A DNA stretch of 54,484 nucleotides from Escherichia coli (lineage in GTDB: Bacteria > Pseudomonadota > Gammaproteobacteria > Enterobacterales > Enterobacteriaceae). This document shows positions 1,743 to 49,903 of this stretch, piece by piece. The translations under genes and the position numbers were made by a program. Location of the stretch: the NCBI RefSeq assembly GCF_003334355.1, contig NZ_QOWP01000027.1, one strand, 5' to 3'. How positions within the stretch are numbered: position 1 is the stretch's first letter; the number at the start of each line of letters is the position of its first letter. The notes beneath the pieces were generated by a model. The model did no database searches, was not told the origin of the DNA, and worked only from the letters and a program-made list of their open reading frames with translations.

Positions 1743-4187
1743 TTACGCGGCTTCAACTTTCCGCACTTTCTCCGGCAACTTTACCGGCTTCGTCGCCAGC
1801 TCTTCCGGATCAAAGTCATCAACGTTAATACTGCGCAGACGGCTTTCTTCAGCTTTCACCAGAATAGCGGCTTCATCTTTATCAATCAGCCCCTTCACCA
1901 GCGCGTTGTGCGCCAGTTCATCCAGACGGGTAAACGGCAGGTTTTTACCCAGCTCTTTACAGATCCGCTGATGAATTGGGTCGGCGGCAATCACATCCAC
2001 CAGCGCCTCTTCCAGCAAGCCAACCGGATTATGCTCGCTCGGCGTCAGGTACTGACCGCGACCAATGCGGGAACGGGTGGCGTTCGGCACTTGTAAAATC
2101 TTCGCCACTTTATGATCCAGCTTGTCAGAAGGTGCCAGATAATGACGTCCGGTCGGGAAGATCACCACATTCAGCAGCCCGGCAACCACGCGGTTCGGGA
2201 AGTTTTGCAGTAAATCATCCATCGCCTGTTCAGCCTGATACAGCGCATCTTGTACGCCCCAGTGCACCAGCGGCAGGTCGGCTTCATTACGGCCTTCGTC
2301 GTCATAACGCTTCAGCACGGCAGAGGCGAGGTAGAGCTGGCTTAAAATATCCCCCAGACGGGCCGAGATGCGCTCGCGACGTTTCAGGCTGCCGCCCAGC
2401 ACAGCCATCGAGACATCAGAAAGCAGGGCGAGGTTGGCGCTCAGGCGGTTCAGGTGCTGATAGTAGCGTTTAGTGGCATCGCCGGTTGGCGTGCTGCTGG
2501 TTAAACCGCGCGTCAGGCCCAGCCAGAAGCTGCGAACTTTGTTGCTACCGACGTGACCGATATGTTTGAACAACAGTTTATCGAACGCGTTGACGTCATT
2601 GTTCTTCGCCGCTTCCATCTCTTCCAGCACGTACGGATGGCAACGAATCGCTCCTTGTCCGAAGATCATCATGCTGCGGGTCAGAATGTTAGCCCCTTCA
2701 ACGGTGATGGCAATCGGTGCGCCCTGGTAAGCACGCGCCAGGAAGTTGCTTTGCCCGAGCATAATGCCTTTACCGCCGGTAATATCCATCGCATCAATAA
2801 TCGACTGCTGCCCGCGGTGGGTACAGTGATACTTAACGATAGCCGACAGCACGGCAGGTTTTTCGCCGAGCATAATGCCGTAGGTAATCAGCGATGCCGC
2901 AGCATCCATCACGTAGGCATTACCGGCAATACGCGCCAGCGGCTCTTCAATCCCTTCCATCTTACCAATAGAGATTTTGAACTGACGGCGAATGTGAGCA
3001 TACGCGCCGGTTGCCAGCGCTACCGATTTCACGCCGCCGGTTGAGTTGGAAGGCAGGGTGATGCCGCGGCCTACCGAGAGGCACTCCACCAGCATCCGCC
3101 AGCCTTGCCCGGCCATTTTCGGCCCGCCGATGATGTAATCGATCGGCACGAAGACATCTTTACCGCGCGTCGGTCCGTTCTGGAACGGTACGTTCAGCGG
3201 GAAGTGGCGACGACCAATTTCCACGCCCGGCGTGGTGGTTGGGATCAGCGCACAGGTAATGCCTAAATCTTCTGCACCGCCGAGTAATTTTTCCGGGTCG
3301 GAGAGTTTAAACGCCAGCCCAAGCACGGTCGCAATCGGTGCCAGCGTAATGTAGCGTTTGTTCCAGGTCAGACGCATCCCCAGCACCTGCTGGCCCTGCC
3401 ATTCGCCCATGCAGACAATCCCGGTGTCCGGAATCGCGCCCGCATCGGAACCCGCTTCCGGGCTGGTCAGTGCAAAGCAGGGGATCTCCTGACCACGCGC
3501 CAGACGCGGCAGATAGTGATCTTTCTGCTCGTCAGTGCCGTAATGTTGCAACAGTTCGCCCGGGCCTAATGAGTTCGGCACGCCGACGGTAATCGCCAGG
3601 ATCCCGCTCACGCCGGAGAGTTTTTGCAGCACGCGAGACTGGGCATAAGCTGAGAACTCCAGTCCGCCGTACTCTTTTTTGATAATCATCGCGAAGAAGC
3701 GATGCTCTTTAAGGTACGCCCACAACTCCGGCGGCAGATCCGCCAGCTCATGAGTAATCTGGAAATCATTCGCCATCCGGCAGGCTTCTTCTACCGGGCC
3801 GTCGAGAAACGCTTGCTCTTCGGCGGTCAGGCGCGGCTGCGGATAGTTATGCAGCTTTTTCCAGTCCGGCTTGCCCTGGAACAAGTCGCCCTCCCACCAG
3901 GTGGTGCCCGCATTAATCGCTTCTTTCTCAGTGCGCGACATCGGCGGCATCACCTTACGGAAACCGCGAAATACCGGCGCGGAAATCATCGACTTACGCA
4001 TAGGCGCAAAGTTAAATGGCACGAGGATAATGGCCAGAGGCACCAGTACCCACGCCGACCACAGACCAGCAACGCCGAGGGCGGCTGTCCAGGCGAGCAA
4101 AATCAGACTGCTGATAAATAAGCTCACGCGGTGATAGAACAACGCGCCGAGCAGGACAACCGTAGCGAGAATACTCAAAATCATCAT
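1743..4187 (-). CDS. fadE: Acyl-CoA dehydrogenase FadE
   Basis: Long ORF (track 840 aa); N-terminal membrane segment [17 protein letters not shown]… then acyl-CoA dehydrogenase domains; start placed at internal ATG (4185-4187) giving 814 aa. Confidence 0.9.
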
Positions 4188-4426
4188 AACGAAAAGCCCC
4201 TTACTTGTAGGAGGTCTGACCACTTGTGATGATATGGTTGTAGTGGATGTAAAAACATTTAGCAATGTGTTTACAATATAATTACAACAAAGCTCACATT
4301 GTTGCTGTTTTTATCCGCACTTCAGGTCAAAAAGTCCTGGTCATAGCACCTGCCCGTACTTCTCGCTTTTGGCGGTATCCGGTACACTGCATTTTGTCTA
4401 TTACATTTATGCTGAAGGATATCCTC

Positions 4427-5005
4427 ATGTACCAGGATCTTATTCGTAACGAACTGAACGAAGCGGCGGAAACGCTGGCTAACTTTTTAAAAGATGACGC
4501 CAATATTCACGCCATTCAGCGCGCGGCGGTCCTGTTAGCAGACAGCTTTAAAGCCGGTGGCAAAGTGCTTTCCTGCGGCAACGGCGGTTCCCATTGCGAC
4601 GCTATGCACTTTGCCGAAGAGTTGACCGGTCGCTACCGTGAAAACCGTCCGGGCTACCCGGCGATTGCTATTTCTGACGTTAGTCATATTTCCTGCGTCG
4701 GTAATGATTTCGGTTTCAATGATATTTTCTCCCGCTACGTTGAAGCGGTAGGTCGCGAAGGCGATGTACTGCTGGGGATCTCCACCTCCGGTAACTCTGC
4801 AAACGTGATCAAAGCGATCGCAGCGGCGCGTGAGAAGGGGATGAAAGTGATCACCCTGACCGGTAAAGACGGCGGCAAAATGGCTGGCACGGCGGATATC
4901 GAAATTCGCGTACCGCACTTTGGTTATGCCGACCGCATTCAGGAGATTCACATTAAAGTGATCCATATCCTGATCCAGTTAATTGAAAAAGAGATGGTTA
5001 AGTAA
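4427..5005 (+). CDS. gmhA: Sedoheptulose-7-phosphate isomerase (SIS domain)
   Basis: 192 aa from ATG at 4427 ([17 protein letters not shown]…), SIS-domain motifs ([28 protein letters not shown]); upstream part of the track ORF is non-coding leader. Confidence 0.92.
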
Positions 5006-5011
5006 GTCTGG

Positions 5012-5147
<136 letters not shown>

Positions 5148-5210
5148 CTGAAAATTCTTAAATCAATCTTCGCCGGGGGCCATGCGCTCCCGCTGTTGTG
5201 GAGGTTACCC

Positions 5211-5978
5211 ATGTGCGAATTGCTCGGGATGAGCGCCAACGTCCCTACCGATATCTGCTTTAGTTTCACCGGACTTGTACAGCGTGGTGGTGGAACCGGG
5301 CCACATAAAGATGGCTGGGGCATTACCTTTTACGAAGGTAAAGGCTGTCGCACATTTAAAGATCCACAACCCAGCTTTAATTCCCCCATCGCCAAACTTG
5401 TCCAGGACTACCCGATAAAATCCTGTTCGGTGGTGGCTCATATTCGCCAGGCTAATCGGGGCGAGGTGGCGCTGGAAAATACTCACCCATTTACCCGCGA
5501 GTTATGGGGGCGTAACTGGACTTATGCCCATAACGGACAACTGACGGGCTACAAATTACTGGAAACCGGCAACTTCCGCCCGGTAGGCGAAACCGACAGC
5601 GAAAAAGCCTTCTGCTGGCTGCTGCATAAATTAACGCAGCGTTACCCGCGTACACCGGGCAACATGGCGGCAGTGTTTAAATATATCGCCTCACTGGCGG
5701 ATGAACTGCGGCAGAAGGGCGTTTTCAATATGCTGCTTTCTGACGGGCGCTATGTAATGGCGTATTGCTCGACTAATTTACACTGGATCACCCGCCGCGC
5801 GCCGTTTGGCGTGGCAACGTTGCTGGATCAGGATGTGGAAATCGACTTCAGCTCGCAGACCACACCGAATGATGTGGTCACGGTGATTGCAACACAGCCG
5901 CTGACGGGCAATGAAACCTGGCAAAAGATTATGCCAGGCGAATGGCGCTTATTTTGCCTCGGGGAGCGTGTAGTTTGA
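5211..5978 (+). CDS. yafJ: Class II glutamine amidotransferase-like protein YafJ
   Basis: Start at ATG 5211 ([14 protein letters not shown]…; N-terminal Cys nucleophile typical of Ntn/class-II GATase), GGAGG RBS at 5198-5202. Confidence 0.88.
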
Positions 5979-6689
5979 TGCCAGTTGTGGCTGCACAACT
6001 TCGTGGCTTAACGGCTTGCTGACCACGTAACGACCATTGACCACAGAAACGGTCGGTGGCTTACGGGTTTGCTCAAAGTAGTCGTAACCCGGCTTCAGTT
6101 GCTCCCAGAAGTCCTTAAAGTTGGAATATTTATGGCGCTTCATATTGGCGTCGGTCATGCGGAACGGGTAAATACTCACTTGCACGCTCGGCTGACCAAA
6201 CACCAGCGCACCAGTAACGAACTGGAAGATCTCATCAATACCCTGATTGGTCATTGCGTAGCAGCCGATGGAAACACAATCGCCGTGGATCATCAGGTAT
6301 TTCCCTTCATAACCATGCGCACGGTCATAGGCATTGGGGAAACCAATATTAATCGCTTTGTAGTAACGGCTGTCTGGTTTTAACTGATTACGCTGGACGC
6401 TATAAAACCCTTCCGGGCTTTTGAAATCGCCCTGACGCTGTTTTGGCCCTAAGCCGCCGGAATATTTACAGATTTTATAGCTGTCGAGCAGTTGATATTG
6501 CTCGCCCATTTTGACGTAGAGATCGAGCGTACGTTCTTCCTTGAAGATCTGGATGTAGACAGGGGATCCCATCAACTGCTGCTTATACTCTTTGCTCACT
6601 GGCGTGGTCGAGCTACTGCTGCCCAGCAAACCGGCAAACGAAACGCACGGGATCAACAACATCGCAAGAATTAATGCGATTTTACGCAT
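5949..6689 (-). CDS. yafK: L,D-transpeptidase-family periplasmic protein YafK
   Basis: 246-aa ORF with signal peptide and YkuD-like catalytic region (…[15 protein letters not shown]…); ATG at 6689. Confidence 0.88.
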
Positions 6690-6844
6690 ACTGCTTATTC
6701 CTTGATAAAACGGTTACACACGCCAGGACGGCAAAATAGATCCCAAATCGGAATAGTCTGGATTTGGAAGGCTCACATTATCACCAAAAGAGTTTTACGC
6801 AAGCCTGTCGGCGCAGGGTTTACAAATTTCATCGGCAGCGTGCT

Positions 6845-7123
6845 TTACCCAAAGAGCGCCGCGTGAGTTCCAGTTCTCTCAAATCGTAAAAGTTTATCGG
6901 TAAGTTTGTAAATCAGGATCCAGTCCGGTTCGACATGAGCATCGCGATAACCTTTCCATGAACCTTGCAGCGGGTGGTCTTTATAAACAGCTGGAAGCGG
7001 TAAAGCATTATTGATAAGAAGCGTCATAAGATATTTCAATTTATTCATATCCTTATGACGCTTTTGTGCAAGTTTTACATCCTTTGAAAATTGTCCCGAG
7101 TATTCAATATCCCTTTGAATCAT
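6845..7123 (-). CDS. yafQ: Type II toxin YafQ (RelE/ParE-fold mRNA interferase)
   Basis: 92-aa ORF directly downstream of dinJ with 2-nt gap; sequence MIQRDIEYSGQFSKDVKLAQKRHKDMNKL… typical of YafQ. Confidence 0.9.
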   Translation of the reverse strand: MIQRDIEYSGQFSKDVKLAQKRHKDMNKLKYLMTLLINNALPLPAVYKDHPLQGSWKGYRDAHVEPDWILIYKLTDKLLRFERTGTHAALFG

Positions 7124-7125
7124 AT

Positions 7126-7386
7126 TTAAATTCCTAATTTATCAAATAAATCATCGGCGTCTTTGGCCTTATGAACATCAACGCCAGCTTCGCTGTTTTT
7201 GATTGATTGAATGGTTAATTGATTAGGCTCGCGTAAATCAAACGGCAATGCCTTTTCACGCGCGACCTTTGTGAGGGTTATGCGAACCAGGTCAGAGATG
7301 GTCAGCCCCATCCCGGCCAGTACGTCCGCCGCCTGATTCTTCAGATCTTCATCGATTCGGGCGCGAACAAACGCGTTAGCAGCCAT
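7126..7386 (-). CDS. dinJ: Antitoxin DinJ
   Basis: 86-aa RHH-type antitoxin (MAANAFVRARIDEDLKNQAADVL…), ATG at 7386, LexA-box-like sequence upstream. Confidence 0.9.
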   Translation of the reverse strand: MAANAFVRARIDEDLKNQAADVLAGMGLTISDLVRITLTKVAREKALPFDLREPNQLTIQSIKNSEAGVDVHKAKDADDLFDKLGI

Positions 7387-7401
7387 TGGGGGATCTCCTG
7401 T

Positions 7402-7419
7402 GCTGTATATTTATTCAGC
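7402..7419 (-). promoter_or_regulatory. Putative LexA (SOS) box upstream of dinJ-yafQ
   Basis: gctgtatatttattcagc on + strand; reverse complement reads CTGaataaatatACAG, close to LexA consensus CTGT-N8-ACAG. Confidence 0.55.
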
Positions 7420-7595
7420 TTGAATTGTAGCTCAAATGAGCAACAGCGACAATCCATGAGTAATTTAATAAACGGATGTTTTTACATAATTAACTGAAAT
7501 ATATTTATTAATTTTATAATAATGGTTTATTAAGTTTGTTCAGGTACGGGCCGGGATACACTGTAACATCAATGCATGACCAGCCATTATTGAGA

Positions 7596-8434
<839 letters not shown>

Positions 8435-8520
8435 CGTTTTTGCGAGCCGCTTTCCTGTTATTCCATCACCTCATTGCCGACCTTTCCTTTTCTTCTTACC
8501 GTTGAGAAAAAGGAGTCGCC

Positions 8521-9018
8521 ATGTCTGAATATCGTCGTTATTACATCAAGGGGGGAACCTGGTTTTTCACGGTGAATTTACGCCATCGTCGAAGCCAACT
8601 CTTGACCACCCAGTACCAGATGCTCCGTAACGCCATTATTAAAGTTAAGCGAGACAGGCCTTTTGAAATCAACGCCTGGGTCGTTTTGCCAGAGCATATG
8701 CATTGCATATGGACATTACCTGAAGGCGATGATGATTTTTCCTCTCGCTGGCGGGAAATTAAAAAGCAATTTACCCATGCTTGTGGATTGAAAAATATCT
8801 GGCAACCACGTTTTTGGGAGCACACCATCCGCAATACCAAAGATTATAGGCATCATGTTGATTATATTTATATAAATCCAGTAAAGCATGGTTGGGTAAA
8901 GCAAGTGAGTGATTGGCCATTCTCAACGTTCCATCGCGATGTCGCGCGAGGGTTATATCCCATCGATTGGGCGGGGGACGTAACGGATATAAATGCTGGC
9001 GAGCGTATCATTTTATAA
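8521..9018 (+). CDS. yafM: REP-associated tyrosine transposase (RAYT, IS200/IS605-like HUH)
   Basis: 165-aa ORF, HUH motif (…LPEHMHCIWTLP…) and C-terminal Tyr region (DYIYINPVKHGW); flanked on both sides by REP clusters; AGGAG RBS. Confidence 0.85.
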   Translation: MSEYRRYYIKGGTWFFTVNLRHRRSQLLTTQYQMLRNAIIKVKRDRPFEINAWVVLPEHMHCIWTLPEGDDDFSSRWREIKKQFTHACGLKNIWQPRFWEHTIRNTKDYRHHVDYIYINPVKHGWVKQVSDWPFSTFHRDVARGLYPIDWAGDVTDINAGERIIL

Positions 9019-9020
9019 TT

Positions 9021-9226
9021 ATGCGCAGATGCCTGATGCGACGCTGGCGCGTCTTATCATGCCTACAAACCTGTGCCGGATCGGTAGGCCGGATAAGGCG
9101 TTTATGCCGCATCCGGCAGTTATGCGCAGATGCCTGATGCGACGCTGGCGCGTCTTATCATGCCTACAAACTTGTGCCTGAACGGTAGGACGGATAAGGC
9201 GTTCACGCCGCATCCGGCAGTTGTGC
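9021..9226. repeat. BIME (about 4 REP units)
   Basis: Alternating REP palindromes (gcctgatgcgacgctggcgcgtcttatcatgcctaca / ggtaggccggataaggcgtttatgccgcatccggca) repeated twice between yafM and lfhA. Confidence 0.85.
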
Positions 9227-9241
9227 ACCAATGCTGGATAC

Positions 9242-11335
9242 TTACATCAACGCCCCCATAATCTTCAACTCCAGCTCATCCGGCACTTCGTTATACGACA
9301 GCACATGCAGCCCCGGCGCAAACAACCTTGCATAACGCGCCAGCAAAGGGCGCAGCTGCGGTGGCACCAGCAGCACCGGGTCTTTCCCCGCCGCTTTCAT
9401 CTGCTCTTTCACCTGTGGCATCGTACTCTGGAACTGGTTGAGCATATTCGGATCGACCGGCACGCTGTCGAGCATCACTTTCCCGCCCTGTTGCGCCTGA
9501 TTCACCACGTTGGTCAGCAGATTTTCCAGCTCATTATTCAGCGTATACACCGTCAGCTCCTGCTTGCGAACGAACGGATGGGTAATGCTTCGCCGCAGCG
9601 CCAGGCGCACATCAGCTGCCAGCAGAATATGATCTTTGGTCACCGCGCTACTGGCGACCAGCACGGTGGCGATGGTGACGATATCGCGCAGGGAAACGCC
9701 TTCGGTCAGCAGCGCCCGGTACACTTTCAGCAACTGGCTGTAATTGAGCGCCGCGCTTAAATCTTCCGCCAGGCGCGGTGCCATCGACGCCAAACGGTTA
9801 TGCAACTGCGTAATATCATCATAGTTAAACAAATCAGGAATATAGCTGCGCACAATCTTGTTCACATGGGTAGCAATCACGCTGGCGCTGTCGATCACCT
9901 GATACCCCATATTCAGCGCCTTCGCCTTCTGCGCAGGCTGGATCCAGGTGACCGGCATCCCATACGCCGGGTCGTTCCCCAGCACGCCGTCAATCTCGCC
10001 GTAGGTTTCGCTGGAGGGCAGGGCCATCAGTTTATCCGCCGGAATATCCGCTTCATCAGCCTTAATGCCGTTGATGAAAATAGCGTACTGGCTGGGCTTA
10101 AGGCGGAAGTTTTCCCGAATGCGGATCTCCGGCAGCAGCACGCCGTTGCCGTCAGAAATCACCTGTCGCACGCCGCGAATACGCTGGGTGAGCGGGTTGC
10201 CCTGGGCTTTGTCCACCAGCGCCACCAGCTTGTAGCCGAGGCTTAAGCTGATGGGCTCGATCAGCGGAATGGTTTCCCAACTGACCTGTTGCTCGCTGGT
10301 TTCGGTGATGGTGCGGGTCAGCGTTTCGAGACTTTTCTCTTCCGCTTCCGCCGCCTGCGGGCGTTTGCTCATCCGCCAGCCGGTAAAGCCAAGCAGGGCG
10401 CTGAACAGCAAAAACGGCAGATGCGGCATTCCCGGCACCACCGCCAGCACAAACATAATCCCGGTAGCGGTGTAGAGCACCGACGGGCTTGCCAGCAGCT
10501 GGTGGCGCACGTCATGGGCGATATCGCCGTTGTCGCTGACGCGGGTGACGATAATCGCCGCCGCCGTGGAGAGCAGCAGGGAAGGGATCTGCGCCACCAG
10601 GCCGTCGCCGATGGTCATCAGCACATACTGCTGGAAGGCAGCATCGGCGCTCAGGTTGTATTTGAAGATCCCGATACAGACGCCGCCGATCAGGTTGATC
10701 GCCAGAATCATCATCCCGGCGATGGCGTCCCCGCGCACAAACTTCGATGCCCCGTCCATCGCGCCGTAGAAATCGGCCTCGCTGGCAACATCTTTACGCC
10801 GGGTTTGCGCCTGCGCCTGGTTGATCAATCCGGCGTTAAGATCGGCGTCAATCGCCATCTGTTTGCCGGGCATCGCGTCTAAGGTAAAGCGGGCAGAAAC
10901 CTCGGAAATACGCTCGGCCCCTTTGGTGACGACAATAAAGTTGATGATCATCAGGATGATAAACACCACGAAGCCGACGACAAAGTTGCCGCCGATCACC
11001 ACCTGACCAAACGACTCAATCACCTTACCCGCCGCGCCCGCGCCGAGATGCCCGTGCAGCAGCACCACGCGCGTAGAAGCAACGTTAAGCGTCAGGCGCA
11101 TTAAGGTGGTGATCAGCAAAATGGTCGGGAACAGGCTGAATTCCAGCGGCCTTTTCGCCGACACCGCCACCAGCAGCACCATCACCGCCAGCACAATGTT
11201 GAAGGTGAACAGAATATCCAGCAACGCAGGCGGCAGCGGCAAAATAACCATCGCCAGAATACAAAGTATCACCAGCGGCACGCCGAGATTGCCGCCGCGC
11301 AGCAGCGCGAGGAACGATTTAGTTGTTTTCGCCAT
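9242..11335 (-). CDS. lfhA: Flagellar type III export gate protein, FlhA homologue (lateral/Flag-2)
   Basis: 697 aa; N-terminal TM region with FlhA signature (…LPLPPALLDILFTFNIVLAVMVLLVA…FPTILLITTLMRLTLNVASTRVVL) and large cytoplasmic domain; ATG at 11335. Confidence 0.93.
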   Translation of the reverse strand: MAKTTKSFLALLRGGNLGVPLVILCILAMVILPLPPALLDILFTFNIVLAVMVLLVAVSAKRPLEFSLFPTILLITTLMRLTLNVASTRVVLLHGHLGAGAAGKVIESFGQVVIGGNFVVGFVVFIILMIINFIVVTKGAERISEVSARFTLDAMPGKQMAIDADLNAGLINQAQAQTRRKDVASEADFYGAMDGASKFVRGDAIAGMMILAINLIGGVCIGIFKYNLSADAAFQQYVLMTIGDGLVAQIPSLLLSTAAAIIVTRVSDNGDIAHDVRHQLLASPSVLYTATGIMFVLAVVPGMPHLPFLLFSALLGFTGWRMSKRPQAAEAEEKSLETLTRTITETSEQQVSWETIPLIEPISLSLGYKLVALVDKAQGNPLTQRIRGVRQVISDGNGVLLPEIRIRENFRLKPSQYAIFINGIKADEADIPADKLMALPSSETYGEIDGVLGNDPAYGMPVTWIQPAQKAKALNMGYQVIDSASVIATHVNKIVRSYIPDLFNYDDITQLHNRLASMAPRLAEDLSAALNYSQLLKVYRALLTEGVSLRDIVTIATVLVASSAVTKDHILLAADVRLALRRSITHPFVRKQELTVYTLNNELENLLTNVVNQAQQGGKVMLDSVPVDPNMLNQFQSTMPQVKEQMKAAGKDPVLLVPPQLRPLLARYARLFAPGLHVLSYNEVPDELELKIMGALM

Positions 11336-15471: not shown

Positions 15472-15649
15472 GGCTTACTTTCTCTGCTGTAATGGTATGG
15501 GCGTTTTTGTGCACGCAAATCCGGCAGTGACACAAGGTGAGGTATTAAATAGAGAGGGCGTGAAAGGGGCAAATTATTAATAGAGTGAAAAAATAATTAA
15601 ATTATTAAAGGGTGAGATGTCGGGCATCGTCATAAAACATTGCACGAAC

Positions 15650-15735
<86 letters not shown>

Positions 15736-15858
15736 GCTATAACTCATTGTTATTCAACAAATAATATTTTTATTATCGTTTAATTCGAACTTGTTAATCC
15801 CGCCGATGATACGCTTCAGAACATCCTGTTTTCTGTCGCTACTTATATCGTTCACCCT

Positions 15859-37381: not shown

Positions 37382-38359
37382 ATGCAGGTCGGACTTACAT
37401 CTTCATCACTCGCCACCGGCGGCGCGCATAGCGCTGCGGTATCGTCGTCAACCGTTGCGCCCACTCAGGCGGTGCGGCAAAAACTCCCGGCGACGGCGAG
37501 TGAATATCCGGCCTCGCCGCTGATTACCACTCGCCCGCAGCGTTACAGCGTGCAGCTTAACGACCAGCTCACCACGTTGCAGCAGGCGGATCATTATCTC
37601 GGGCAACTGGAGCAGCAGTTGCTCGATTATCGTCATAGCCAGCGTAAGGGCGGGCAGGCGCAGAGTACGGCGCTGATGCAGATGCTGGACAAACGCACCG
37701 CGCTTTCCGGCGGCGCGGTGGACCGCCAGTTGCAGCCAGTGTTGCAGGGTGAAGCGCGGGTGACTTTTCACTCGCCGGATATGGCGAATCTGGTACACAA
37801 TCCCACGCCGGGAACGCGGATGTTCAGCGTCTCTGACGGGCGGCAGACTCAGCTTTCGGCGGTGATGCTGTCTGAGGATGACAGCGCCGGGCAGTATCAG
37901 ACGCGGCTGACCAACGCCCTGCGCCGCGTGGGCGTTCAGTTGCATCAGCAAGCGGATGGCATCAGTTTCTCCACCACTGAAAAACAGTGGCCTGATATCG
38001 AGCGCACCTTAAGCGTGCGCACCGATGGCGATAAGTCGGCGTTTATGCCGCTAAAAACCTTTGCCGAACCATCACAGGTGGAGCGCTTAGCGCAAAGCCT
38101 GCAACAGGGCGGGGCGGGGATTTCTCAAATGCTGGAAAGCATTAATCAGCAGCGCGCGCAGATGGCGGTGCAGCAGGAAAAGGCGCGGCAGTTGATCGAC
38201 GGCATGTCGCGCTTCCCGCAAACGGAAAACGCGGTGCAGGCGTCGGAAAACCTCGGCGGCGTGCTCGATAGCGCCAATCATAACTATCAGGTGTTATTGC
38301 AGGCGGTGAACGGTCAGGCGCGAATTTCCAGCCAGACGGTGAGGAATTTATTGGGGTAA
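37382..38359 (+). CDS. lafW: Flag-2-specific protein, possible additional hook-associated/flagellin-like protein
   Basis: 325 aa; C-terminus (…NLGGVLDSANHNYQVLLQAVNGQARISSQTVRNLLG) resembles the conserved C-terminal helix of axial flagellar proteins; function uncertain. Confidence 0.6.
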   Translation: MQVGLTSSSLATGGAHSAAVSSSTVAPTQAVRQKLPATASEYPASPLITTRPQRYSVQLNDQLTTLQQADHYLGQLEQQLLDYRHSQRKGGQAQSTALMQMLDKRTALSGGAVDRQLQPVLQGEARVTFHSPDMANLVHNPTPGTRMFSVSDGRQTQLSAVMLSEDDSAGQYQTRLTNALRRVGVQLHQQADGISFSTTEKQWPDIERTLSVRTDGDKSAFMPLKTFAEPSQVERLAQSLQQGGAGISQMLESINQQRAQMAVQQEKARQLIDGMSRFPQTENAVQASENLGGVLDSANHNYQVLLQAVNGQARISSQTVRNLLG

Positions 38360-38366
38360 TTATCGG

Positions 38367-38403
38367 CAGGCCGGATAAGACGCGTTTAGCGTCGCATCCG
38401 GCA
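38367..38403. repeat. Single REP element after lafW
   Basis: ggcaggccggataagacgcgtttagcgtcgcatccggca. Confidence 0.75.
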
Positions 38404-38417
38404 TATATTGGCACTCA

Positions 38418-39260
38418 TCAGCATTTTTGCACAGTATTTAACAACTTCTCTAAATTCTGATACATCGCGCTATTAATATCGCTGTTCTGCCAGCCTTCCA
38501 CATTAAAAGTTAATTGCCAGCTACCATTGCACTGGTTGCGCAGAACAATATCACTTTCCAGTCGGTTACGAACATATTTATAATAGGTTGTCATTGTCAT
38601 ATTATGCGCTGACAATAAATTATCGAGTTTGTCTTTCCCTGGTGCGAGGGTTTGTGACAGTAACGGTACGGAACTATTTTCTTTTCCAGAACTAAGGTGA
38701 AATATTTTTATTCTTGGACTGTTAATTGACTCTTTTACCAGTTGCGGGGCATCAGGTGTACTTTTCAAGTGTGAATGCCCCACGGTCGAGCCAATAAATA
38801 TAACAACCGCGGTCAAGGCTAACCCCATCAGTCCTTTATGTTTTTTTCTAACAGGCACAGGCGGTGTTGTCGAAGATATCTCTTCTGGCACAATTTCCTG
38901 TATCTGGTTGGTAATAATCAGCGCTTCCGCTGGCGATGACTCCGGCAAAGACACATACTCTTTATTGCACAGGTAACCTTTTTTCGGGATGGTTTTAATA
39001 ATGTTCTGTTGTTTGCCATCATCGTCGATAGCAACGCGCAACGCATGGATTGCCGTCGGCAGGCTGTTACCGCCGACAATGCGGTTCTTCCATACTTCGG
39101 CACATAAATAAGATCGCGATAAAACCACATCGGCATTTTTTGCTAATGTTTCCAGCAAAATAAAATGGTATTCGCCGAGACGACGTGTTTCACCCGTTTC
39201 GCAATGTATTAAGGCATTAAGCGACGGGTCCATCCGCCAGTTGTTGATAATAATACTCAT
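38418..39260 (-). CDS. lafZ: ToxR/CadC-like membrane-anchored winged-helix transcriptional regulator
   Basis: 280 aa; N-terminal OmpR/PhoB-type DNA-binding region, one predicted TM helix (GLMGLALTAVVIFIGSTVG), C-terminal periplasmic domain; noticeably AT-rich; divergent from lafA. Confidence 0.75.
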   Translation of the reverse strand: MSIIINNWRMDPSLNALIHCETGETRRLGEYHFILLETLAKNADVVLSRSYLCAEVWKNRIVGGNSLPTAIHALRVAIDDDGKQQNIIKTIPKKGYLCNKEYVSLPESSPAEALIITNQIQEIVPEEISSTTPPVPVRKKHKGLMGLALTAVVIFIGSTVGHSHLKSTPDAPQLVKESINSPRIKIFHLSSGKENSSVPLLSQTLAPGKDKLDNLLSAHNMTMTTYYKYVRNRLESDIVLRNQCNGSWQLTFNVEGWQNSDINSAMYQNLEKLLNTVQKC

Positions 39261-39745
39261 AGTTGAGTTTACCTTAGCAAGGGATAAATGTTACCTGATA
39301 GTGCTTTGCATAAAGCACAGTCTTATACGTCCCTGAGAAGATGATTTTTCTGCGTGATAATTAATATTTTATGGTAATAGGATTATTCTTAATCACTATA
39401 TGGCGTGGAAATGTAACGAAATGACAGGATAGGTACAATAGCCAAATGTGTACTATTTGCAACGCAATGTAAATTTTGGCATCAGTACATTGAGAAGAAA
39501 ACGCGTTAATTGATGGTAATCTTAACTATATCAAGCGTTTGATAAAGACATATTTTGATACCTGGCCATGTGGCAGATATTGCTAATAATCCTTTTATCT
39601 GAATTTAAACTCTGCTTTTTTTAGCTAAAAGTGGCATCAGATAAACCGCGCTGAAATTTTTTTAACGGCGGTTTTAAGTTTGCTCCCGAGGTGTCGTTTT
39701 TACAGGGTATCGAAACGAAAACGATTAATCCCAAGGAGCAGTATC

Positions 39746-40660
39746 ATGTTATCTATTAACACCAATAACGCCTCAATGGCCGCCGTTAATGCAATCAGCA
39801 AAAGCAGCTCTTCTCTGTCTACATCTATGGAACGCCTGGCGACAGGTAACCGGATTAACTCTTCTGCCGATGACGCAGCGGGCAAACAAATTGCTAACCG
39901 TCTGACTGCACAGTCAAGCGGTATGGGCGTGGCGCTGAGCAATATCAATGATGCCACCGCGATGCTGCAAACCGCCGACAGCATGTTCGATGAAATGTCT
40001 GACGTGCTGGGTCGTATGAAAGACCTGTCAACTCAGGCAGCGAACGGCACCTACAGCGACGACGACCTGCAGGCGATGCAGGACGAATACGACGAACTGG
40101 GTCAGCAGATGTCTGACATGCTGCAAAACACCACCTACGGCGGCACCAACCTGTTCGGTGTTTCCGGCACCAGCAACACCGGTACTGACGGCCTGTTCCA
40201 GAGCGCGGTAACCTTCCAGGTGGGCGCGGAATCTTCCGACACCATGACCGTGAACATTTCAAGCCAACTGAATACCCTGGTGACGGATCTTTCTGCTATC
40301 AGCAACTCCTTCAGTGCGGATCAGGCAGACACCACGGGTACTGCAGGCGTGTCTGGCGGTACTGAGCTGACTGCGTCTGGCTCGGCTAACCAGATGATTA
40401 CCAGCATTTCTACCGCGATGGATGACGTTTCTCAGATTCAGTCCAAGCTGGGTGCGTCTATTAACCGTCTGAACGACACTGCCAACAACCTGACCAGCAT
40501 GCAGGACAACACCGAAGTTGCTATCGGTAACATCATGGATACCGACTACGCGACGGAAGCGTCCAACATGACCAAACAGCAGGTGCTGATGCAGACCGGC
40601 ATCACCATGCTGAAACAGTCCAACAGCATGTCCAGCATGGTTTCCAGCCTGCTGCAGTAA
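39746..40660 (+). CDS. lafA: Lateral flagellin
   Basis: 304 aa from ATG 39746 with AAGGAG RBS; flagellin N-terminal domain (MLSINTNNASMAAVNAISK…LATGNRINSSADDAAGKQIANRLT…) and C-terminal domain (…VLMQTGITMLKQSNSMSSMVSSLLQ); short Ser/Thr/Gly-rich central region. Confidence 0.93.
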   Translation: MLSINTNNASMAAVNAISKSSSSLSTSMERLATGNRINSSADDAAGKQIANRLTAQSSGMGVALSNINDATAMLQTADSMFDEMSDVLGRMKDLSTQAANGTYSDDDLQAMQDEYDELGQQMSDMLQNTTYGGTNLFGVSGTSNTGTDGLFQSAVTFQVGAESSDTMTVNISSQLNTLVTDLSAISNSFSADQADTTGTAGVSGGTELTASGSANQMITSISTAMDDVSQIQSKLGASINRLNDTANNLTSMQDNTEVAIGNIMDTDYATEASNMTKQQVLMQTGITMLKQSNSMSSMVSSLLQ

Positions 40661-40669
40661 TGGCGGACT

Positions 40670-40773
<104 letters not shown>

Positions 40774-40903: not shown

Positions 40904-40918
40904 TGGCACGCCTTTTGC
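40904..40918 (+). promoter_or_regulatory. Candidate sigma-54 (-24/-12) promoter for lafB operon
   Basis: TGGCACgccttTTGCc: exact TGGCAC-N5-TTGC spacing, about 33 nt upstream of lafB ATG. Confidence 0.55.
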
Positions 40919-40950
40919 CAATAACCTGACATCGTTATTCGGAGTCATCA

Positions 40951-48195: not shown

Positions 48196-48246
48196 TGTAT
48201 ACTATTATGTCTATTCTGGTGTGCATTATTATGAGGGGATCACTGC

Positions 48247-48540
48247 ATGCATCGAATTCTCGCTGAAAAATCGGTCAATATTACTGAGTTACGTAAAAAC
48301 CCAGCTAAATACTTTATTGATCAACCGGTTGCGGTTCTTTCTAATAATCGCCCCGCAGGATATCTCTTAAGTGCCAGCGCATTCGAAGCGTTAATGGACA
48401 TGCTTGCTGAACAAGAGGAGAAAAAGCCCATAAAGGCGCGCTTCCGTCCAAGTGCTGCAAGATTAGAGGAAATTACACGCCGAGCTGAAAAATATCTTAA
48501 TGATATGACGGATGATGATTTCAATGACTTTAAGGAATAA
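48247..48540 (+). CDS. yafN: Antitoxin YafN (Phd/YefM family)
   Basis: 97-aa ORF immediately upstream of yafO in dinB operon. Confidence 0.88.
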   Translation: MHRILAEKSVNITELRKNPAKYFIDQPVAVLSNNRPAGYLLSASAFEALMDMLAEQEEKKPIKARFRPSAARLEEITRRAEKYLNDMTDDDFNDFKE

Positions 48541-48542
48541 GG

Positions 48543-48941
48543 ATGCGGGTATTCAAAACAAAACTTATTCGCCTGCAACTTACAGCAGAGGAACTTGATG
48601 CGTTAACGGCGGATTTTATTTCCTATAAGCGTGACGGTGTTTTGCCAGATATATTTGGTCGCGATGCACTCTACGACGACTCGTTTACCTGGCCATTAAT
48701 CAAATTTGAGCGAGTTGCTCATATTCATCTGGCAAATGTGAATAATCCATTTCCGCCACAGTTGCGCCAATTCAGCAGAACGAATGACGAAGCGCATTTG
48801 GTATATTGTCAGGGTGCGTTTGATGAGCAAGCATGGTTGCTCATTGCCATTCTGAAACCTGAACCTCATAAACAGGCTCGAGATAACAACCAAATGCATA
48901 AAATTGGGAAAATGGCAGAAGCGTTTCGCATGCGTTTTTGA
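48543..48941 (+). CDS. yafO: Toxin YafO (ribosome-dependent mRNA interferase)
   Basis: 132-aa ORF, 2 nt after yafN stop. Confidence 0.88.
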   Translation: MRVFKTKLIRLQLTAEELDALTADFISYKRDGVLPDIFGRDALYDDSFTWPLIKFERVAHIHLANVNNPFPPQLRQFSRTNDEAHLVYCQGAFDEQAWLLIAILKPEPHKQARDNNQMHKIGKMAEAFRMRF

Positions 48942-48950
48942 ATTTATATT

Positions 48951-49403
48951 ATGAATAACATACAAATAAGAGACTATCAGCCTGGCGATTTTCAGCAACT
49001 ATGCGCTATTTTCATTAGAGCGGTTACGATGATCTCCAGTCAGCATTATTCACCACAACAAATTGCCGCCTGGGCGCAGATTGACGAATCTCGCTGGAAG
49101 GAGAAACTCGCGAAATCACAAGTGCGGGTTGCCGTCATTAATGCACAACCGGTTGGTTTTATTACCTGCGTTGAACGTTATATCGATATGTTATTTGTTG
49201 ACCCTGAATACACCCGCCGCGGGGTTGCCTGCGCTTTGTTAAAACCTTTGATTAAGTCTGAATCCGAACTTACGGTGGACGCCAGCATAACCGCAAAACC
49301 CTTTTTTGAACGTTATGGTTTTCAGACAGTTAAGCAGCAGCGCGTTGAATGCCGGGGAACGTGGTTTACTAATTTTTATATGCGATATAAACCGCAATAT
49401 TAA
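48951..49403 (+). CDS. yafP: GNAT-family N-acetyltransferase YafP
   Basis: 150 aa with GNAT acetyl-CoA-binding signature (…RRGVACALLKPL…). Confidence 0.88.
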   Translation: MNNIQIRDYQPGDFQQLCAIFIRAVTMISSQHYSPQQIAAWAQIDESRWKEKLAKSQVRVAVINAQPVGFITCVERYIDMLFVDPEYTRRGVACALLKPLIKSESELTVDASITAKPFFERYGFQTVKQQRVECRGTWFTNFYMRYKPQY

Positions 49404-49636
49404 ATCCAGCTTGCAATGAAAATAACGCCCGCCTGGTATGTGCGCGTTTTCTTATTCCACAAACTGCAAGGAGGTAAATCATGACAAATCCTTTATCAAT
49501 GACTCTTTGCAGACCTTTCCAGGATTAATTCTTTTTTTCTTGCCCTGGATTCGTCTGCCATTTCCTGATTTTTATATTTATATACTCTAAATAATTCGAG
49601 TCGCAGTACATGCAACTTGAAGTATGACGAGTATAA

Positions 49637-49903
49637 ATGGAATGGTACATGGGCAAATATATTCGTCCCTTATCCGATGCGGTATTTACCATCGCATCTG
49701 ATGACCTGTGGATCGAGAGTTTAGCGATCCAACAATTACACACCACGGCAAATTTACCCAACATGCAGCGCGTAGTGGGGATGCCAGATTTACACCCCGG
49801 ACGCGGCTACCCGATTGGCGCAGCGTTCTTCTCTGTTGGTCGTTTTTACCCGACAAGACGTCGCTGTAACGGTGCTGGAAACAGAAACGGGCCGCTACTC
49901 TGA
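49637..49903 (+). pseudogene. RtcB-family RNA ligase 5' fragment (ykfJ-like remnant)
   Basis: First about 66 residues match RtcB N-terminus including …[21 protein letters not shown]…; reading frame then degenerates and stops after 88 codons. Confidence 0.7.

What the first reader, a model, noticed from the sequence alone, without database searches (positions are those of the whole stretch)
38418..39745. ToxR-like membrane regulator LafZ and a 485-bp AT-rich control region divergent from the flagellin gene
lafZ encodes an OmpR/PhoB-type winged helix fused to a single TM helix and a periplasmic domain, the ToxR/CadC one-component architecture. It is oriented divergently from lafA across an unusually long AT-rich intergenic region, and the gene itself looks AT-richer than the surrounding GC-rich flagellar genes. 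This suggests an environmental-sensing regulator (pH, bile, osmolarity or similar) of lateral flagellin expression, possibly H-NS silenced and possibly of distinct evolutionary origin.
Basis: partly seen in the sequence, partly recalled or inferred. Interest (0 to 1): 0.5.

Follow-up and report, generated by a model that had tools for sequence, protein, structure and literature searches.

The report
LafZ: ToxR-like regulator of Flag-2
This is lafZ, an already named but never tested membrane-anchored ToxR/VtrA-type transcription factor in the E. coli lateral-flagella (Flag-2) locus; its AT-rich control region is conserved across enterobacteria, and E. coli has lost the small partner gene that follows lafZ in most other genera.

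Summary
The window is the E. coli Flag-2 locus. lafZ (38418-39260, minus strand, 280 aa) encodes an N-terminal OmpR/PhoB-type winged helix, one TM helix and a 115-aa periplasmic domain. It lies divergent from lafA across a 485-bp spacer of 35% GC. This is the lowest-GC stretch of the window.

The gene and its "putative transmembrane regulator" label are already published (Ren 2005, cited in De Maayer 2020). I found no functional study.

What I add:
- In about 67 of 80 related loci a roughly 155-aa membrane or periplasmic ORF overlaps the lafZ stop codon, as in toxRS and vtrAC. It is absent from Escherichia and Pseudocitrobacter, where a REP element sits instead.
- E. coli lafZ is still under purifying selection (omega 0.05-0.12 in both folded domains).
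- lafZ plus the spacer is a mosaic segment, with dS about ten times that of its flanks.
- lafA has a conserved sigma-28-type promoter, so LafZ is not required to explain flagellin transcription.

The sensing role, the targets and H-NS silencing remain inferences.

The parts
38418..39260 (-). lafZ coding sequence (280 aa plus stop): a membrane-anchored ToxR/VtrA-family transcription factor
   Evidence: ORF. RefSeq annotates it as 'transcriptional regulator' WP_087899589.1. An orthologous family was found.
38961..39260 (-). Cytoplasmic OmpR/PhoB-type winged-helix DNA-binding domain (residues 1-100)
38835..38945 (-). Disordered, fast-evolving juxtamembrane linker (about residues 106-142)
   Evidence: pLDDT is below 50 for residues 112-140. 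Length is variable in alignment A1. omega is 0.3-1.4.
38772..38834 (-). Single transmembrane helix (residues 143-163), preceded by RKKHK
   Evidence: Hydropathy peak of 1.97 at residues 143-161. AF2 helix at 143-163.
38421..38765 (-). Periplasmic VtrA/ToxR-like domain (residues 166-280) with the order beta2-alpha-beta3-alpha. The invariant Cys244 codon is at 38529-38531. Cys280, the last residue, is at 38421-38423.
39261..39745 (.). 485-bp lafZ-lafA intergenic region at 35% GC. It holds the lafA promoter at its right end and, presumably, the lafZ promoter and regulatory sites.
   Evidence: Composition. The equivalent spacer is 413-974 bp at 29-40% GC in 48 loci. It is poorly conserved except for the 100 bp nearest lafA.
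39654..39700 (+). Sigma-28 (LafS)-type lafA promoter. It comprises an A/T tract (39654-39663), a -35-like TAAGTTT (39675-39681), an 11-nt spacer and a -10-like GTCGTTTT (39693-39700).
   Evidence: Coordinates. The motif TTAA(G/T)-N14-15-(G/T)NCGYYT is found upstream of lafA in 45 of 46 loci, against 0.21 expected in shuffles.
39382..39411 (-). Weak candidate sigma-70 promoter for lafZ (TTTCCA-18-AATAAT)
   Evidence: Consensus scan scores 9 of 12. The block ...ACATTTCC...TAAGAATAATCC is recognisable in Escherichia and Pseudocitrobacter alleles. This is tentative.
39746..40660 (+). lafA, lateral flagellin, divergent neighbour of lafZ
   Evidence: RefSeq annotates it as 'lateral flagellin LafA'. 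ORF.
38369..38412 (.). REP-type palindromic element filling the 58-bp gap between the convergent lafW and lafZ. It occupies the position where other genera carry the partner gene.
   Evidence: Sub-threshold Rfam naRNA4 (REP-derived) hit on both strands. Sequence read. The gap is 56-62 bp in Escherichia and Pseudocitrobacter, against about 450-540 bp elsewhere.

Best explanation
lafZ encodes a bitopic inner-membrane transcription factor of the ToxR/TcpP/VtrA family that belongs to the conserved gene set of the Flag-2 (lateral flagella) locus.

Shown here:
- It has a cytoplasmic ToxR-like winged helix, a disordered linker, one TM helix and a periplasmic VtrA/ToxR-fold domain with two invariant cysteines.
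- Both folded domains are under purifying selection in Escherichia.
- Its position divergent from lafA, across a long AT-rich spacer, is conserved across Enterobacterales.
- In most genera a roughly 155-aa membrane or periplasmic ORF overlaps its stop codon. Escherichia and Pseudocitrobacter lack that ORF.

Inferred:
- LafZ binds DNA while tethered to the membrane and couples an envelope or periplasmic condition to Flag-2 expression. In other genera the signal would come through the partner protein. In E. coli it would come through the LafZ periplasmic domain alone, for example through its Cys244-Cys280 redox state or its stability.
- The most likely sites of action are in the AT-rich lafZ-lafA spacer. 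There LafZ could autoregulate, or boost or de-silence the sigma-28 lafA promoter, in the way ToxR and CadC counteract H-NS at AT-rich promoters.
- The AT-rich region upstream of the master regulator gene lafK is an alternative target.
- lafZ itself shows no sigma-54 or sigma-28 promoter. It therefore probably feeds an outside signal into the LafK to LafS to lafA hierarchy rather than being a class within it.

Conserved synteny (lafW, then lafZ convergent with it, then lafA divergent) and conserved spacer properties come.

For the partner ORF:
- It overlaps the lafZ stop codon in most loci.
- It is absent from the window.
- It is absent from 5,426 complete E. coli genomes at blastn sensitivity.

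Purifying selection is seen on the wHTH (omega 0-0.06) and the periplasmic domain (0.08-0.12), with the linker and TM helix near neutral.

Promoters:
- The lafA promoter is a conserved sigma-28 type.
- Sigma-54-like promoters lie upstream of lfgB (28083) and lafB (40904).
- No sigma-54-like site faces lafZ.

The family traits are described in PMC9214523: overlapping partner gene, a C-terminal Cys in the overlap, fast evolution, and the beta2-alpha-beta3-alpha periplasmic fold.
Against: - There is no experimental datum on LafZ in the searchable literature.
- No ToxR-box direct repeats occur in the spacer.
- The H-NS high-affinity motif is not enriched there.
- No motif conserved across genera was seen upstream of lafZ.
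- lafA already has a complete sigma-28-type promoter.
- ToxR, TcpP and VtrA depend on their partners, and E. coli LafZ has none.
- lafZ plus partner persists in Erwinia loci that have no Flag-2 structural genes nearby, so its targets need not be flagellar.
- TM topology and disulfide formation are predictions.
Confidence: 0.6

Rival explanations
1. LafZ, with its partner where present, is a regulator whose main targets lie outside Flag-2. Its place in the locus would be historical.
For: Intact lafZ-partner pairs persist in Erwinia loci with no flagellar genes within 6 kb (L029, L033). Six loci from three families (L036, L042, L049, L060, L069, L080) keep lafZ, the partner and lafK with no structural genes in the 12 kb held, and five of them also keep lafS. 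L032 keeps lafS but shows no lafK. A sigma-54 promoter precedes lafS in L036, L049 and L069.
Against: In 48 loci lafZ keeps the same divergent position next to lafA. De Maayer et al. treat it as a signature gene of Flag-2. The regulator-only clusters could still control flagellar genes located elsewhere, because only 12 kb was inspected.
Confidence: 0.2
2. In E. coli, lafZ is a functionless relic. Having lost its partner, it sits in a largely cryptic locus and the AT-rich region is simply silenced DNA.
For: The partner is absent. Several truncated LafZ protein clusters with more than 100 members occur among E. coli sequences, although many may be assembly fragments. The literature reports frequent Flag-2 gene loss.
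Against: omega is 0.05-0.12 in the wHTH and periplasmic domains between partner-less Escherichia lineages, at dS 0.1-0.65. It is 0.04-0.08 against Pseudocitrobacter. The full-length cluster has 2,295 members. Both cysteines are retained.
Confidence: 0.12
3. The AT-rich lafZ-spacer block is recently acquired foreign cargo unrelated to the flagellar system.
For: Its GC is 12-20 points below that of its neighbours. dS is ten-fold higher than in the flanks. The adjacent lafW-lafZ junction is described as a cargo hot spot.
Against: Orthologous lafZ occupies the same position in Enterobacteriaceae, Erwiniaceae, Yersiniaceae and Budviciaceae. The long AT-rich spacer is also conserved. The high dS points to allele replacement within the orthologous family, not to an unrelated insert.
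Confidence: 0.05
4. LafZ is a CadC-type self-contained one-component pH/ligand sensor.
For: NCBIfam's best partial hit is the CadC N-terminus. Some sources label it 'CadC family'. There is no partner in E. coli.
Against: The similarity is confined to the wHTH. The periplasmic domain is 115 aa with the VtrA fold, unlike CadC's large two-subdomain sensor. Most orthologues have an overlapping partner ORF.
Confidence: 0.03

Closest known systems
ToxR (with ToxS) of Vibrio
   Different: There is no toxS-like gene in E. coli. There is no detectable sequence similarity in the periplasmic domain. No ToxR-box repeats occur in the adjacent spacer. The genomic context is flagellar rather than porin or virulence.
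VtrA/VtrC bile-acid co-component receptor of V. parahaemolyticus and the 'co-component' superfamily (Kinch et al. 2022, PMC9214523)
   Different: The partner's lipocalin-like fold was not tested here. It has no Pfam, NCBIfam, PDB-sequence or YqeJ hhalign similarity. The partner is missing in the window. The paper does not mention flagella. Its Y. pseudotuberculosis cassette BZ17_3283/3282 may be the Yersinia lafZ pair, but I could not verify that.
CadC of E. coli
   Different: The CadC periplasmic sensor is far larger and has a different fold. LafZ orthologues normally have a partner.
LafK / LafS hierarchy of lateral flagella (Vibrio, Aeromonas, Flag-2)
   Same: It lies in the same locus. Sigma-54-like promoters precede lfgB and lafB, and a sigma-28-type promoter precedes lafA, which fits that hierarchy.
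   Different: LafZ is an additional regulator that has no counterpart in the primary flagellar (flag-1) locus. It has no sigma-54 or sigma-28 promoter of its own.

Membership tests
ToxR/TcpP/VtrA-type transmembrane transcription regulators (co-component superfamily) | N-terminal cytoplasmic OmpR/PhoB-type winged-helix DNA-binding domain | tested here: met
ToxR/TcpP/VtrA-type transmembrane transcription regulators (co-component superfamily) | Single TM helix placing the C-terminal domain in the periplasm | tested here: met
   One hydrophobic segment at 143-161 after RKKHK. AF2 helix at 143-163. This is a prediction only; topology has not been shown experimentally.
ToxR/TcpP/VtrA-type transmembrane transcription regulators (co-component superfamily) | Small periplasmic beta2-alpha-beta3-alpha domain of the VtrA/ToxR fold | tested here: met
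ToxR/TcpP/VtrA-type transmembrane transcription regulators (co-component superfamily) | Periplasmic cysteine pair forming an intramolecular disulfide | tested here: inconclusive
   C244 and C280 are invariant in 52 sequences. Bond formation and geometry could not be examined.
ToxR/TcpP/VtrA-type transmembrane transcription regulators (co-component superfamily) | Co-transcribed, often overlapping, downstream gene for a membrane-tethered lipocalin-like periplasmic partner | tested here: not met
   In the window only 58 bp with a REP element follow lafZ. There is no tblastn hit in the window and no blastn hit in E. coli genomes. In about 67 of 80 loci from other genera an overlapping ORF of about 155 aa is present, but its fold was not tested.
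ToxR/TcpP/VtrA-type transmembrane transcription regulators (co-component superfamily) | Signal-dependent DNA binding and promoter activation from the membrane | not testable with these tools
   This needs EMSA or ChIP and reporter assays.
CadC-type one-component sensors | Large periplasmic CadC sensor domain (two subdomains) | tested here: not met
   The periplasmic part is only 115 aa. Pfam finds nothing beyond Trans_reg_C. The fold matches VtrA.
OmpR/PhoB two-component response regulators | N-terminal receiver domain with a phospho-acceptor Asp, and a C-terminal wHTH | tested here: not met
   There is no Response_reg hit. The wHTH is N-terminal. All response-regulator matches cover only their C-terminal domains.
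Flag-2 LafZ orthologous group (Ren 2005; De Maayer 2020) | wHTH-TM protein encoded between lafW and lafA, divergent from lafA, in a Flag-2 locus | tested here: met
   Synteny in the window and in 48 loci. I made no direct comparison with accession CAH19147.1.

The most novel reading that the evidence does not exclude
LafZ is the DNA-binding half of a VtrA/VtrC-type co-component envelope sensor (lipid, bile or a similar ligand) that gates the secondary flagellar system of Enterobacterales. On this reading, the single 'hypothetical cargo gene' of variable region VR2 is its overlapping sensor partner. The Escherichia/Pseudocitrobacter lineage deleted that sensor and left a REP element. Its LafZ is an orphan, still under selection, that is either signal-blind or rewired. 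This could help explain why Flag-2 expression has been so hard to elicit in E. coli.
Probability: 0.3. Interest if true: 0.6.

Novelty: already known. Interest (0 to 1): 0.35.

Why it matters
Flag-2 is present in about a quarter of complete E. coli genomes (1,276 of 5,426). I found no study in the searchable literature that identifies the signals controlling it. LafZ is the only Flag-2 gene with the hallmarks of an envelope-signal input, so it is the obvious handle for testing what controls the system.

Three things make concrete experiments possible:
- LafZ belongs to the ToxR/VtrA class.
- Most orthologues carry an overlapping partner ORF, previously filed as cargo.
- E. coli lacks that partner.

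The experiments that follow are overexpressing the cytoplasmic domain, swapping in a Citrobacter lafZ-partner cassette, and testing bile, fatty acids, pH and redox. The annotation itself is not new.

Tried and rejected
- Single-sequence AF2 gave pLDDT 31 and was unusable.
- The sequence profile of the periplasmic domain against the PDB found nothing.
- The partner family found nothing in Pfam, NCBIfam, PDB sequences or by hhalign against K-12 YqeJ. Source names are only 'hypothetical protein'.
- Rfam has no family in the spacer. The only hits are REP-derived ones flanking lafZ and lafA.
- No terminator-like site was found.
- There is no credible small ORF in the spacer; all candidates are 37 aa or shorter with TTG or GTG starts.
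- The ToxR box TNAAA-N5-TNAAA has no match in the spacer.
- The H-NS motif TCGATAAATT has one 2-mismatch hit in the spacer, so there is no local enrichment.
- No sigma-54 promoter faces lafZ.
- Direct and inverted repeats in the spacer are only short pairs at chance level.
- No motif conserved across genera was seen upstream of lafZ.
- The supplement of Kinch et al., which could link BZ17_3283/3282 to Flag-2, is not held.

Full report
WHAT IS THERE

The window is an E. coli chromosome segment carrying the Flag-2 (lateral flagella) locus. A 1.5-kb query around the finding is 100% identical to strain PSS-12. It is found in 1,276 of 5,426 complete E. coli genomes. RefSeq annotates the neighbourhood as flgK, flgL, a hypothetical protein (lafW), a 'transcriptional regulator', lafA, fliD and onward to the FliA-like sigma factor, motA and lafU, followed by dinB.

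The ORF at 38418-39260 (minus strand, 280 aa) is that regulator.

COMPOSITION

- lafZ is 42.5% GC (GC3 43.8%) and the spacer is 35.5% GC.
- Nineteen other genes of the window have 50-61% GC (GC3 57-77%).
- Only 0.1-0.2% of equally sized windows are as AT-rich, and the window's GC minimum lies here.

THE PROTEIN

Pfam finds one domain, Trans_reg_C, at residues 25-97 (E=3.6e-13). NCBIfam hits are all partial matches to wHTH domains, and the best is the CadC N-terminus.

Against PDB sequences, the best hits are the ToxR DNA-binding domain (8b4b, E=3.5e-8) and CadC (5ju7, 2e-6).

There is one hydrophobic segment at 143-161 after RKKHK.

A search of 1.84 billion representative proteins gave 45 clusters below 1e-30. 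A 52-sequence alignment (A1) shows an invariant wHTH core and two invariant cysteines, C244 and C280, the latter being the last residue.

With that alignment AF2 gives pLDDT 86.6:
- wHTH at residues 1-100;
- a disordered stretch at 112-140;
- a helix at 143-163;
- a confident C-terminal domain at 173-280 with the order beta-beta-alpha-beta-beta-beta-alpha.

A sequence profile of the domain finds nothing in the PDB, as expected for this fast-evolving family.

LafZ is therefore a ToxR/VtrA-type membrane-tethered regulator. It is not a CadC-type sensor and not a response regulator.

WHAT THE LITERATURE ALREADY SAYS

De Maayer et al. 2020 (PMC6993521) cite Ren et al. 2005 for LafZ as a 'putative transmembrane regulator'. 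They state that lafK, lafW and lafZ are conserved signature genes of Flag-2 that are absent from flag-1. They give LafZ orthologues 38.9% average identity. They also define a variable region, VR2, between lafW and lafZ. VR2 is present in 80.7% of loci, averages 0.6 kb, usually has one hypothetical gene, and is interpreted as horizontally acquired cargo.

Searches for lafZ with Flag-2, and for Flag-2, lateral flagella and ToxR, found no functional study. Its mechanistic claims are untested.

COMPARATIVE CONTEXT

A scan of one genome per species returned 80 loci.

tblastn synteny shows lafW and lafZ convergent, and lafZ and lafA divergent, in most Flag-2 loci of Enterobacteriaceae, Erwiniaceae, Yersiniaceae and Budviciaceae.

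In 48 loci with lafA directly divergent:
- the spacer is 413-974 bp (median 565);
- its GC is 29-40%;
- lafZ is less GC-rich than its flanks in 47 of 48, by a mean of 12 points in the Escherichia/Citrobacter group and 4 points elsewhere.

The long AT-rich spacer is therefore a conserved property of the system, not an E. coli oddity.

THE lafA END OF THE SPACER IS EXPLAINED

Upstream of lafA, every genus shows an A/T tract, then TTAA(G/T)TT, then about 11 nt, then G(T/C)CG(T/C)TT. A relaxed pattern matches 45 of 46 loci, against 0.21 expected in shuffles.

In the window these elements lie at 39654-39663, 39675-39681 and 39693-39700. This is a sigma-28-type promoter. By my own knowledge the consensus is TAAAGTTT-N11-GCCGATAA, and the promoter is presumably read by LafS.

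Sigma-54-like sites precede lfgB (28083) and lafB (40904). None faces lafZ.

The remaining 390 bp or so is poorly conserved even between close relatives. It contains:
- no Rfam family;
- no credible small ORF;
- no ToxR box;
- no excess of the H-NS motif.

The only lafZ promoter candidate is a weak TTTCCA-18-AATAAT at 39411-39382.

A PARTNER GENE THAT E. COLI LACKS

In most loci outside Escherichia and Pseudocitrobacter, the gap between the lafZ stop and the lafW stop is 450-540 bp rather than about 60 bp.

That gap holds a 150-160-aa ORF on the lafZ strand. It starts 20-40 nt before the lafZ stop, has an N-terminal signal or TM segment, and has a conserved G(F/Y)YDL...Y motif. tblastn finds it directly after lafZ in about 67 of 80 loci.

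It has no Pfam, NCBIfam or PDB-sequence match and is only ever named 'hypothetical protein'.

This layout is that of toxRS, tcpPH, vtrAC, psaEF and yqeIJ as described by Kinch et al., including the overlap that covers the C-terminal Cys codon. It is evidently the single gene of 'VR2'.

Kinch et al. list a Y. pseudotuberculosis cassette, BZ17_3283/3282, with a transcription-factor model spanning residues 235-348. The Yersinia LafZ ORF in L077 is 348 aa, so these may be the same pair. I could not verify this, and the paper never mentions flagella.

In the window, the position is occupied by a REP element (38369-38412). No homologue exists elsewhere in the 54 kb. The Citrobacter gene has no blastn match in 5,426 E. 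coli genomes.

I could not model the partner because the structure jobs were exhausted. Its VtrC/ToxS-like fold therefore remains an inference from position, size and topology.

IS E. COLI lafZ STILL FUNCTIONAL?

Nei-Gojobori estimates between the window and other partner-less Escherichia lineages give:
- omega 0-0.06 for the wHTH;
- omega 0.08-0.12 for the periplasmic domain;
- omega 0.3-1.4 for the linker and TM helix.

Against Pseudocitrobacter, the periplasmic domain still shows omega about 0.08. Both folded domains are therefore maintained by selection, which argues against a relic.

MOSAIC HISTORY

Between E. coli and Pseudocitrobacter, the flanking genes have dS 0.24-0.29 and their proteins are 96-100% identical. 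lafZ has dS about 2.8 and 63% protein identity. Nucleotide identity falls to 34-57% between roughly 38600 and 39650 and recovers at the lafA promoter.

A ten-fold excess of synonymous change cannot come from selection on the protein. The lafZ-spacer block has a deeper ancestry than its flanks, which implies allele replacement by recombination.

REGULATOR-ONLY CLUSTERS

Seven loci carry lafZ-partner flanked by other Flag-2 regulator genes, with no structural genes in the 12 kb held:
- L036, L042, L049, L069 and L080 carry lafS divergent from lafZ-partner and convergent with lafK.
- L060 has lafK but no lafS hit.
- L032 has lafS but no lafK hit.

Clear sigma-54 promoters (TGGCAT-N5-TTGCT) precede lafS in L036, L049 and L069. 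Several Erwinia loci keep only lafZ-partner.

Either these regulators serve flagellar genes elsewhere in the genome, or LafZ has targets beyond Flag-2. This is the main rival to a purely flagellar role.

VERDICT

The feature is real and correctly read as a ToxR-like membrane regulator, but that annotation is already in the literature.

The most likely mechanism is a membrane-tethered wHTH factor that feeds an envelope signal into the LafK/LafS hierarchy. It would probably act in the AT-rich spacer or at lafK. In E. coli it would do so without the partner used elsewhere.

My confidence in its identity as a ToxR/VtrA-family factor is about 0.9. My confidence in the full mechanism is about 0.6. 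Direct control of lafA is perhaps 0.35.

Interest is modest, at 0.35. The co-component reinterpretation of 'VR2', and the loss of the partner in Escherichia, are the parts worth following up.

Noticed in passing
L009:6929-7408 (Citrobacter gillenii), with equivalents in about 67 of 80 loci such as L055:6896-7366 and L029:6854-7318; absent at window 38360-38417: A roughly 155-aa ORF with an N-terminal signal or TM segment overlaps the lafZ stop codon by 20-40 nt. It has no Pfam, NCBIfam or PDB match and is always annotated as hypothetical. It looks like a ToxS/VtrC-type partner, and it corresponds to the single gene of the published 'VR2 cargo' region. It is missing in Escherichia and Pseudocitrobacter.
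   Followed up: partly
window 38369-38412 and 40650-40747: REP-type palindromic elements flank the lafZ-lafA pair. One fills the lafW/lafZ gap. The other lies after lafA, where Rfam ES036 scores above its gathering threshold at 40705-40747 and naRNA4-like hits occur at 40650-40701. The post-lafA stretch is also the least conserved part of the locus between strains (25-61% identity).
   Followed up: partly
window about 38500-39650 compared with L007 and L008: lafZ plus the spacer has dS about 2.8 between E. coli and Pseudocitrobacter, while the flanking Flag-2 genes have dS about 0.25 and 96-100% protein identity. This is a recombination mosaic inside an otherwise near-identical locus shared by two genera.
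   Followed up: partly
L032, L036, L042, L049, L060, L069, L080 (about 4000-9300 in each): Regulator-only clusters with no Flag-2 structural genes in the 12 kb held. L036, L042, L049, L069 and L080 have lafS divergent from lafZ-partner and convergent with lafK. L060 lacks a lafS hit and L032 lacks a lafK hit. Strong sigma-54 promoters (TGGCAT-N5-TTGCT) precede lafS in L036, L049 and L069. Erwinia loci L029 and L033 keep only lafZ-partner.
   Followed up: partly
window 28083-28098 (+) and 40904-40919 (+): Sigma-54-type -24/-12 promoter matches (TGGCATGGCGATTGCT and TGGCACGCCTTTTGCC) lie just upstream of lfgB and lafB. This fits LafK/sigma-54 control of those operons.
   Followed up: no
window 37382-38359 (+): LafW (325 aa), the other Flag-2-specific gene, has no NCBIfam match at all. 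RefSeq annotates it variously as 'hypothetical protein' or 'flagellar biosynthesis protein FlhF'. It also evolves fast: 31-69% identity where LfgK is 37-91%.
   Followed up: no
L027 (CACSKA010000002.1, labelled Chryseobacterium sp. 18061): A record labelled as a Bacteroidota genus carries an enterobacterial-type Flag-2 segment nearly identical in layout to L026 (Citrobacter sp. 18056, same study). It is probably a mislabelled or contaminated assembly.
   Followed up: no
window 39301-39318: A perfect 7-bp inverted repeat with a 4-nt spacer (GTGCTTT-GCAT-AAAGCAC) lies about 40 bp upstream of the lafZ start codon. It is not conserved in the divergent Escherichia allele L005. It could be an operator or a leader hairpin.
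   Followed up: no
window 6851-7750, 15501-15850 and 48201-49800: These are the other low-GC stretches of the window (minima 0.36, 0.43 and 0.37). The second is the region upstream of the master regulator gene lafK. The third covers yafN-yafO-yafP next to dinB.
   Followed up: no
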